Assembly: GCA_037379345.1 (NCBI GenBank)
Contig: CM074516.1
Coordinates: 49,637,626-49,701,625, forward strand
Reading direction: 5' to 3'
Length of the DNA stretch: 64,000 nucleotides
DNA from: Perna viridis
Taxonomy: Eukaryota
Part shown: piece after piece, positions 59,001 through 62,000 of the stretch
Numbering within the stretch: the first letter of the stretch is position 1
How the letters are laid out: each line of letters begins with the position of its first letter
Notes under the pieces: model-generated
The model's database searches: none
What the model was told of the DNA's origin: nothing
What the model saw: only the letters and a program-made list of their open reading frames with translations
Position numbers and translations under genes: made by a program

Positions 59001-62000
59001 TACATGTCAGACAGTACAAGGTGAGGTGATTGAGGATTTAGCTGCTGTGGTACATACTCTCTGAATTTATCAAACAGTGTAAATTGTAATTCTCTTAAAT
59101 CCAACCCTTCACCATAAAATACAAAATATGGCACCCACAAAAATTATGGCAGTTTATATTTCTTTAAACACATCTTTTTTTTTTAAATGGACATGAAAGA
59201 TAAAATTTAAACCAAAAAAAAAAAAATAAAAAATAAAAAAATCATAGATTCTGATATAGGTACAGGACTACCAAATCGTGGTGTCGGTCTATCACAACAA
59301 GAAGATAGGACGCTGGTGTCTTTCACAATGAAGAGAGTCAAATACCTAATGGTCTCATACCTTTCCTGTCTTAGGTTGTACCCTTGTCACAGATGAGTGG
59401 TTTACTGGAGTGGTGTGAGGGAACAATGCCTATAGGTGAATATCTTGTGGCCAACATCATGGGGGATGAGAGTCCAGGTGCTCATTGTAGATATAGGCCT
59501 GATGATTACACAGCACTGGAAAGTAGGAGACATATGGCTGTAAGTTATGGTACATTTGGGATAAAGTCATGCTACCATCTCTCTTTACATCCATGTGAAC
59601 ATCTTATATTCAACATTTACATTAATGTTTTTTGTCCACTTAAAGACGAGGGGGATTTTTGGTCCTCTACATGTCTGAATTTGATAACATGGTTCTACTC
59701 ATGTAGTAAAATAATGATACCAATCATGTAATGTAAAGAACTTGATGGAGTACAATTTATGTCAGATTTTATTCTTGTCGTGTGATCACAGTTACATGTA
59801 TCATACAGTTAGAAACTACAAAGTTAAAGAAAAAAAAGTGGGGTTAAAAAAGTTACGGCAGCCCTACCAAAAAAAAAGAAAAACTTCTTGAATTACTTCG
59901 TACAAGCATAAATTCTTACGAATATCATAAATCCATGTTAGTGGAGCACTTGTATGTCATATTAAAAGTGTAATTTCCTTCCTGGTCTTACCACAGAATA
60001 TTGACCCAATCACGCCGTACAGACAATTTATATGTAAAGGCAATGTAACTTCAGTGTTCATACTTATTGTTTAGTGAATTAACAACAATCACATTATTAA
60101 GAAACAATATGTAATTTGTGGAACAAACATTAATCTCTATTTGATTTTCTTGACTATAGGTCAAGGGTCCCAGTGATGTGTTCTGTGACACCCTTGTTAA
60201 CAATCATCATTTAACTTTCAAACAGATCAAATTTTTGTAGAAAATATTTCATAGTCAAAGGTGATGGTCATGTGGTCAGTTATTTAGATTAACAGGAGAT
60301 GCCAGTCTTTTAATTACTTCTGTTATTGATGGGATAAATATGACAGAGAGCTTGAAACATAGTTTTGTTTCCTGAGTAATATTTTTATCTTGCACAGAAT
60401 CTGCGAATCTATCATCTTGTCTGTTTCATAATCACAACATTAGAGCATAATGTCACATTATCCATTCAACTTGTGTACTTTATATTTAAGGGAGTTCATC
60501 AGAGTACAGACCCTATTGTGTACTTTATATTTAAGGGAGTTCATCAGAGTACAGACCCTATTAAGAAGTACAAAGTTTTCCTTGCCATATGTAAAAAGTT
60601 TCAACCTGTGTTTAGACATTTCTTCATGGAGAAGTTCAGAGACCCTGCATTTTGGTTTGAAGCCAGACTGGCATACACTAAAAGTGTAGCTACTAACTCA
60701 ATAGGTACATGTATAATCAAACATGTTTGTAAAACACATTTGTGTATTATATTGAAAAGTATAACAACACTGTAGGGAACATAAAGGCTTGATTATCATT
60801 CAAAGATAAAGCAACTGTTCTTGTAGGGTTGCTTTGTTAGAATCTATTGTATTTTGGTGTGTAAAGTTAACATGTGTATTACAGTAAAAGCAAGATGTAT
60901 TGACCTTCAAAAATCTGTGTAAAAAAGTTTTCATCACAAGTGTGAAAGAGTTGTACACAGTAGATGTGTTTTATAAACATTTACTTCACTTTTTCTTTTC
61001 GGAATGGGGAAAGGCATTTGATGACGGGAAATAAGTCGATGCAATGGGGGATGGAACAATGGGAATGGGGTTATAGGGAATAAGGTAATGGGACAATGGG
61101 GTACGGGCAAGTGGGAAGTTTATCCCATACAGGGACTGTATTGCCCTTAAAAGATAAAAAATGACATTTTTTGTACAGTTTTCAGCCAATATTTTGAGAA
61201 CTATAATAGATGGAAAGAAATTTTCAGTTCCTGAAATGATCAATATGGTAAGTCCTCCCAAAGTCTTCTCGAGTCAAAATTTTTGGACAACTCCTTGTTA
61301 AATTTATTGCCCTTGAAAGACAAAATTATACCAGTTGAGCAATTCAGGCTCCTGGGAGCCTTTTGTCTTAATTAAGATTTGTTAATTGTTAGTTTTGTGT
61401 ATTTCTTTCAGAATGAAACAAAGTTTGTTTTTGTCAGTTATGTGTTTTAGATGTGTCTGATACCAAATTTTGGTCGATTTTTTGGGTGGGGTAGGGTACA
61501 TTTTTATCAGTGCACCACAAAACCCTAAGTGTTACCACAACTTTCTTGGTATCATTGTGAAGCTGAGACATTGGGTTACATAATTATACATAATCATGTT
61601 AAGTTTGTTCACACAGGCTGTCCCAGGAAGGCTTAGACGCTCAAACAATTGAGTCACAAAAATATTGGCTTTTTGACCCAGTGGGGTACAAATATAGGCA
61701 TATACTGAATAAGAATCCCAAATTATTCTTTGATGACAAATTTTTCGTTAACGGGAGGTATAAAGGTACTTAAAAATCACCATGAAGTAAATGAGTGGAG
61801 AGGGTGCACGTTGGACCCTCCCAGCCCATGGACTAGTTCATTGCTGATTTACTTCCTGTTTACTACACAATTTAGTAATTTTTTAGTTATTTAAGTATGC
61901 TTTTCTTCTGCTTCATGATTTGTTCTAGTTGATAGATGTTATAGATTTATTTTTGATAATAGTAAACATCTAATTCTTTAATATTTGAATGTGATTGAGT

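What the first reader, a model, noticed from the sequence alone, without database searches (positions are those of the whole stretch)
60471..60562. Perfect 45-bp duplication of a kinase-domain splice acceptor gives two identical in-frame 3' splice sites
Seen: 20 nt of intron plus 25 nt of exon are duplicated with no mismatch. The upstream AG (exon start 60491) would insert 15 aa ([15 protein letters not shown]) with no stop between ESRRHMA and KKYKVF inside the PI3K-like domain. The downstream AG (60536) gives the unexpanded form. Inference: this is the youngest, two-copy stage of the array process. The upstream copy retains the native upstream intron and probably the branch point, so the extended kinase may be a real or even dominant isoform.
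Basis: partly seen in the sequence, partly recalled or inferred. Interest (0 to 1): 0.7.

Follow-up and report, generated by a model that had tools for sequence, protein, structure and literature searches.

The report
Silent duplicated splice site, mussel ATM
A 45-base stretch across an intron-exon border of a mussel's ATM gene is copied twice in a row, but the RNA examined uses only the second splice site, so the protein is likely unchanged, as in known human and lancelet cases.

Summary
In detail: a perfect 45-bp tandem duplication (60471-60515 = 60516-60560) copies the last 20 intron bases and first 25 exon bases of an ATM kinase-domain exon. It is not an assembly error: the duplication junction is in 3 of 3 DNA runs from three studies. 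Depth ratios suggest that a single-copy allele also segregates. The extended-kinase idea is not supported. In 3 of 4 RNA runs laid the exon is covered, and all three show only the joint 59539>60536. In one of them (X11) the duplicated allele is present, yet the insert-bearing sequence sits at intron background depth (2.8 against 15.5 for the mRNA), which caps the upstream form at about 15%. The insert would fall in the LBE hairpin, where the spacer is 31-36 aa in 122 of 122 matched ATMs and would become 49. This is a young two-copy "mirage" repeat, the mussel counterpart of human CBS 844ins68. Eight of 23 arrays in this gene straddle exon borders. The scan has noted such acceptor arrays before in other genomes.

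The parts
59375..59539 (+). Upstream ATM coding exon (kinase domain); its donor is joined to 60536 in RNA
   Evidence: tblastn to Mytilus trossulus ATM residues 2745-2798, 83%; joints
59540..60535 (+). Intron as actually spliced (996 nt, GT..AG); it contains the whole first repeat unit
   Evidence: joint 59539>60536 in X21 (3 reads), X11 and X16 contigs
60471..60515 (+). Repeat unit 1: 20 nt of intron end, unused AG at 60489-60490, and 25 nt of exon-start copy that is now intronic
60516..60560 (+). Repeat unit 2: used AG at 60534-60535 and the true exon start at 60536
60495..60499 (+). Candidate branch point (yTnAy match, A at 60498, -38 from the used AG) supplied by the exon-derived part of unit 1; inferred only
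   Evidence: motif scan; not tested
60536..60704 (+). ATM exon as spliced (169 nt); encodes the second half of the LBE hairpin onward, aligned to human ATM 2815-2861 from its 10th codon

Best explanation
This is a young, likely polymorphic tandem duplication of an ATM intron-exon border in which the RNA examined uses the downstream acceptor, so the extra 45 bases leave with the intron and the kinase is likely unchanged. Shown: the duplication, its presence in independent DNA samples, and downstream-only splicing in the RNA laid. Inferred: it arose by slippage or end-joining repair at a 2-nt TT microhomology. The downstream AG wins because it is followed by the whole exon body and lies nearest the exon's donor (exon definition), helped by a branch-point-like motif at -38 that the copied exon start provides. 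It survives because it is invisible to the protein. Further unequal exchange would turn it into a multi-copy array like those at other borders of this gene.
For: Joint 59539>60536 in 3 of the 3 RNA runs that cover the exon, from two studies: X21 raw reads 3, X11 contig depth 15.5, X16 contig depth 11.6. X21 and X16 have zero depth in bin 60373-60515. X11 carries the duplication junction as a 75-nt piece at depth 2.76, next to purely intronic pieces at 2.0-2.9; unspliced RNA alone predicts about 3.0, and the upper bound for the extended form is 15%. Repeat/junction depth ratios are 1.96, 2.42 and 3.06 in three DNA runs; pure two-copy homozygosity fits X1 but gives P<=0.0005 for X4 and 0.005-0.014 for X3 in a Poisson read simulation. 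The spacer around the insert site is 31-36 aa in 122 of 122 ATM proteins that matched the anchors (126 examined), 34 with the downstream AG and 49 with the upstream AG. The same outcome is reported for CBS 844ins68 (PMC2630376 and PMC1802585, passages) and amphioxus mirages (PMC3087553, passages).
Against: RNA depth is low: 0 of 3 raw reads allows up to 63% upstream use on its own. Contigs drop rare variants. Three joints were hidden from the table, and a joint with fewer than 3 reads would not be listed. The genotypes of X21 and X16 are unknown; X11 may be heterozygous or pooled, which loosens the bound for the duplicated allele to roughly 30% if heterozygous. Tissues and conditions are unknown. 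The upstream site is intact by sequence (branch-like motifs, no AG for 44 nt upstream), so a simple first-AG scanning model predicts the opposite of what is seen. X4 fits neither a homozygote nor a heterozygote well (best near 0.7-0.75), and real coverage is overdispersed, so the polymorphism is probable, not proven. The branch point and exon-definition steps were not tested.
Confidence: 0.85

Rival explanations
1. The upstream AG is used as a minor alternative acceptor, giving a low-level or tissue-restricted ATM with 15 extra residues in the LBE hairpin.
For: In frame with no stop, so it would escape nonsense-mediated decay. The acceptor is identical over 20 nt and keeps the native upstream context. 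The data cannot exclude use below about 15%.
Against: No read or contig shows it in 4 RNA runs. The X11 signal equals intron background. No matched ATM has a spacer longer than 36 aa (122 of 122).
Confidence: 0.12
2. The extended form is the main product of the duplicated allele, and the RNA seen comes from single-copy alleles.
For: A single-copy allele probably segregates; genotypes of X21 and X16 are unknown.
Against: X11 carries the duplication, yet at most 15% of its ATM signal can hold the insert. This needs a duplicated-allele share of about 0.15 or less in X11, whereas three DNA samples give about 1.0, 0.7 and 0.5.
Confidence: 0.02
3. The duplication is an assembly artefact.
For: Perfect identity of the copies is typical of mis-joins.
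Against: Junction k-mers are present in 3 of 3 DNA runs from three studies and in one RNA run.
Confidence: 0.01

Closest known systems
Human CBS 844ins68 (c.844_845ins68)
   Same: Two-copy duplication of an intron/exon acceptor junction (68 bp); polymorphic; the distal site is used and normal mRNA results (PMC2630376 and PMC1802585, passages).
   Different: Here 45 bp and in frame. CBS relies on G runs between the two sites (PMC1802585 passage); this spacer has only one GGG at the AG itself, so that mechanism is unlikely to carry over.
Amphioxus 'mirage' minisatellites (Adh3, globins BflGb6 and BflGb9)
   Same: [quoted passage not shown]
   Different: Mollusc rather than cephalochordate; perfect identity and only two copies.
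Human F7 intron 7 37-bp VNTR
   Same: First unit spans the exon border; identical spare sites are functional but silent; the exon-proximal site is used (PMC1557585, abstract).
   Different: Donor side and multi-copy; it matches the six donor arrays of this ATM gene better than the finding itself.
Rogers-type intron gain by tandem duplication
   Same: A tandem duplication whose redundant copy is removed by splicing (PMC3265369, passages).
   Different: No new intron is made: the unit has AG|GG rather than AG|GT, and the extra copy is absorbed into an existing intron.

Membership tests
Mirage-type boundary duplication | Tandem repeat whose unit spans an exon-intron boundary | tested here: met
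   20 nt intron + 25 nt exon
Mirage-type boundary duplication | Unit length within the reported 10-160 bp | tested here: met
   45 bp; range from PMC3087553 passage
Mirage-type boundary duplication | Spare copy keeps the splice signal but regular splicing is undisturbed | tested here: met
   Only 59539>60536 seen in the 3 RNA runs covering the exon; upstream form at most about 15% in X11
Mirage-type boundary duplication | Copy number varies between haplotypes | tested here: inconclusive
   Depth ratios point to single-copy alleles in X4 and X3; no raw DNA reads were available
CBS 844ins68-type duplicated acceptor | Two identical 3' splice sites in tandem, distal one selected | tested here: met
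CBS 844ins68-type duplicated acceptor | G runs between the two sites drive distal choice | tested here: not met
   The spacer holds a single GGG at 60490-60492 and no other G run; works like CBS in outcome, not in this mechanism
Alternative 3' splice site event | Both acceptors used in mature RNA | tested here: not met
   No 60491 joint listed in 4 runs; low-level use not excluded
Rogers-type intron gain | Duplicated AG|GT site supplies a new donor and acceptor | tested here: not met
   Unit junction is AG|GG; no new joint inside the duplication was listed
ATM/Tel1 PIKK gene (host) | Collinear homology to full-length ATM | tested here: met
   54 exon-like matches in order to Mytilus trossulus ATM residues 1-2993; best PDB hits are human ATM

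The most novel reading that the evidence does not exclude
The duplicated allele yields, in some tissue or stress state, a minor in-frame ATM isoform with a 15-residue insert in the LBE hairpin, which contacts the partner protomer and forms part of the substrate platform. A common segregating variant would then tune a DNA-damage kinase and catch a new alternative acceptor at its birth.
Probability: 0.08. Interest if true: 0.5.

Novelty: new member of a known kind. Interest (0 to 1): 0.15.

Why it matters
It matters little as a discovery: the class and the outcome are known from human CBS and F7 and from amphioxus. Its modest value is as a clean natural test. One-copy and two-copy alleles probably coexist, the insert would be in frame (so decay of the RNA cannot hide it), and the downstream site still wins. 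That supports exon-side choice of acceptor in a mollusc and explains why border-straddling arrays can pile up in an essential gene. It is also an annotation trap: such copies can be read as coding sequence.

Tried and rejected
No listed holder was on record as RNA; this blank was not used as evidence. X14 does not cover the exon and says nothing. No relatives' genomes were offered, so the duplication could not be dated against a sister species. No structure was predicted for the extended form: it was not detected, and a spliced product could not be handed to the folding tool. The summary alignment added nothing beyond. A one-copy/three-copy heterozygote cannot be told from a two-copy homozygote by unitig depth (X1). 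The 44-bp array at 15226-15621 contains a donor-like motif but no exon homologous to the Mytilus protein was found there, so it was not counted as border-straddling. The array at 1333-1489 lies upstream of the gene and was left out of the 23. Literature: no paper held all of 'tandem repeat', 'exon-intron boundary', 'bivalve', 'intron'; the listings showed no mussel case by title or abstract start. These searches are narrow, and subscription journals are missing. Tsai et al. 1996 was not held; Romano et al. 2002 was seen only as cited in other papers. PMC12954441 (avian sequence stuttering) was seen only as a search listing. No supplements were read. Earlier notes near this place: none; the 8 of 14 same-genome notes shown did not bear on this.

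Full report
Observation. The window holds an ATM gene on the + strand: 54 exon-like matches run in order against Mytilus trossulus ATM, and the exon in question is 82% identical to Mytilus ATM, so the organism is most likely a mytilid mussel (inference). Positions 60471-60515 and 60516-60560 are identical; the match runs to 47 nt because TT follows both copies. Each unit has 20 nt of intron ending in AG and 25 nt of exon. Using the first AG would add 15 codons in frame without a stop. The stretch occurs once in the genome.

Is it real? Yes. With 31-letter words, a 47-nt repeat gives a 58-nt junction piece that exists only if there are two copies. That piece (60488-60545) is in 3 of 3 DNA runs laid, from three studies, with no mismatch. 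One may be the assembly's source; two are then independent.

Is it fixed? Probably not. A pure two-copy sample should give repeat depth twice the junction depth, and a heterozygote three times. Observed ratios are 1.96 (X1), 2.42 (X4) and 3.06 (X3). In a Poisson read simulation X1 fits two-copy homozygosity; X4 does not (P<=0.0005) and also fits a heterozygote poorly (P about 0.005-0.011), lying nearest 0.75; X3 fits a heterozygote best and a homozygote poorly (P 0.005-0.014). X3 is shallow, X4 may be a pool, and real coverage is overdispersed, so this is probable rather than shown.

Which acceptor is used? Four RNA runs were laid; X14 does not cover the exon. The other three show the joint 59539>60536: 3 raw reads in X21, and contigs of depth 15.5 (X11) and 11.6 (X16), from two studies. 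No joint to 60491 is listed, though 3 joints were hidden and a joint under 3 reads would not be listed. X21 and X16 have zero depth in bin 60373-60515, which the extended form would touch. X11 is the informative run. It holds a 75-nt piece across the duplication junction (60471-60545) at depth 2.76, so its animal or animals carry the duplication. The extended mRNA would cover 42 of that piece's 45 words, so it can be at most 2.76/(15.5+2.76) = 15% of the ATM signal. Unspliced RNA at the neighbouring intron's depth (2.2) already predicts about 3.0, leaving no excess. Taken alone, 0 of 3 raw reads would still allow up to 63%. The extended kinase is therefore not dominant and was not detected; use below about 15% is not excluded.

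Would the insert be tolerated? The 10th codon of the exon aligns to human ATM residue 2815, so the insert would fall at about 2806-2814. That is inside the LBE hairpin (residues 2793-2828), which contacts the other protomer in the basal dimer and forms part of the substrate platform (PMC10530080, passages). The spacer between two flanking anchors is 31-36 aa in all 122 proteins that matched, of 126 examined (many are birds, so they are not independent); it is 34 with the downstream AG and 49 with the upstream AG. A dominant extended form would be an outlier, so alleles that splice that way would likely be removed (inference).

Mechanism. Shown: duplication, independent presence, downstream splicing. 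Inferred: origin by slippage or end-joining at the TT microhomology (general knowledge of short tandem duplications). The upstream site looks intact, with branch-like motifs at -23, -31 and -36 and no AG for 44 nt, so first-AG scanning from the old branch point would pick it. The downstream site most likely wins by exon definition: it is followed by the whole exon and is closer to its donor. The copied exon start also supplies a yTnAy motif with its A at -38; the three AGs between it and the used AG lie within about 11 nt of that A, too close to be chosen under the usual rule (recalled, not tested).

Context. Of 23 arrays with period 20 or more inside the gene, 8 overlap an exon border: 2 acceptors (5002-5736 and this one) and 6 donors. 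A null that places one unit at random gives 3.3 expected, P about 0.008. Borders were taken from alignment ends, this is one gene, and survival bias differs between positions, so the excess is suggestive only. An older two-copy donor duplication lies at about 43507-43684 (period 100).

Known kinds. [quoted passage not shown] Amphioxus 'mirages' are tandem duplications of exon-intron boundaries that do not disturb splicing and vary between haplotypes (PMC3087553, passages). F7 intron 7 is the donor-side counterpart (PMC1557585, abstract). Rogers-type intron gain (PMC3265369, passages) does not apply, as no new intron forms. The name 'mirage' came to me from earlier scan notes and was then checked in the paper. 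I found no report for mussels, which are narrow searches.

Verdict. Real feature, observation confirmed, extended-isoform reading not supported. New member of a known kind; interest 0.15.

Noticed in passing
window 5002-5736: About 14 copies of a 53-bp unit holding the acceptor and start of the exon at 5706; by homology the last copy is the real exon start. A multi-copy version of the finding. Not checked in RNA.
   Followed up: partly
window 7713-8134, 18187-19421, 19685-20301, 50084-50270, 56657-57369, 57796-58017: Six arrays whose first unit spans an exon end and its GT donor (periods 32, 44, 40, 65, 63, 73), F7-VNTR-like. Not checked in RNA.
   Followed up: partly
window 43507-43684: Older two-copy duplication (period 100, several mismatches) of an exon end with its donor; missed by TRF.
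   Followed up: partly
P0001 (Mytilus edulis ATM model), residues 1-390: The database protein begins with 9 copies of one exon-start motif that M. trossulus ATM has once. Probably an acceptor array at the exon matching window 54673, mis-annotated as coding; suggests the same process in another mussel. The DNA was not seen.
   Followed up: partly
window 15226-15621: 44-bp array, 9 copies, 96% alike, each with a strong donor-like motif, preceded by an acceptor-like site near 15126; no matching exon in M. trossulus ATM. Possible unannotated alternative exon or chance.
   Followed up: partly
window 26543-30577: 4-kb array of about 94 copies of a 43-bp unit starting about 80 nt after an exon.
   Followed up: no
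window 61088-61373: Intronic repeat with very high RNA contig depth (thousands) from diverged copies elsewhere; a dispersed, transcribed repeat family.
   Followed up: no
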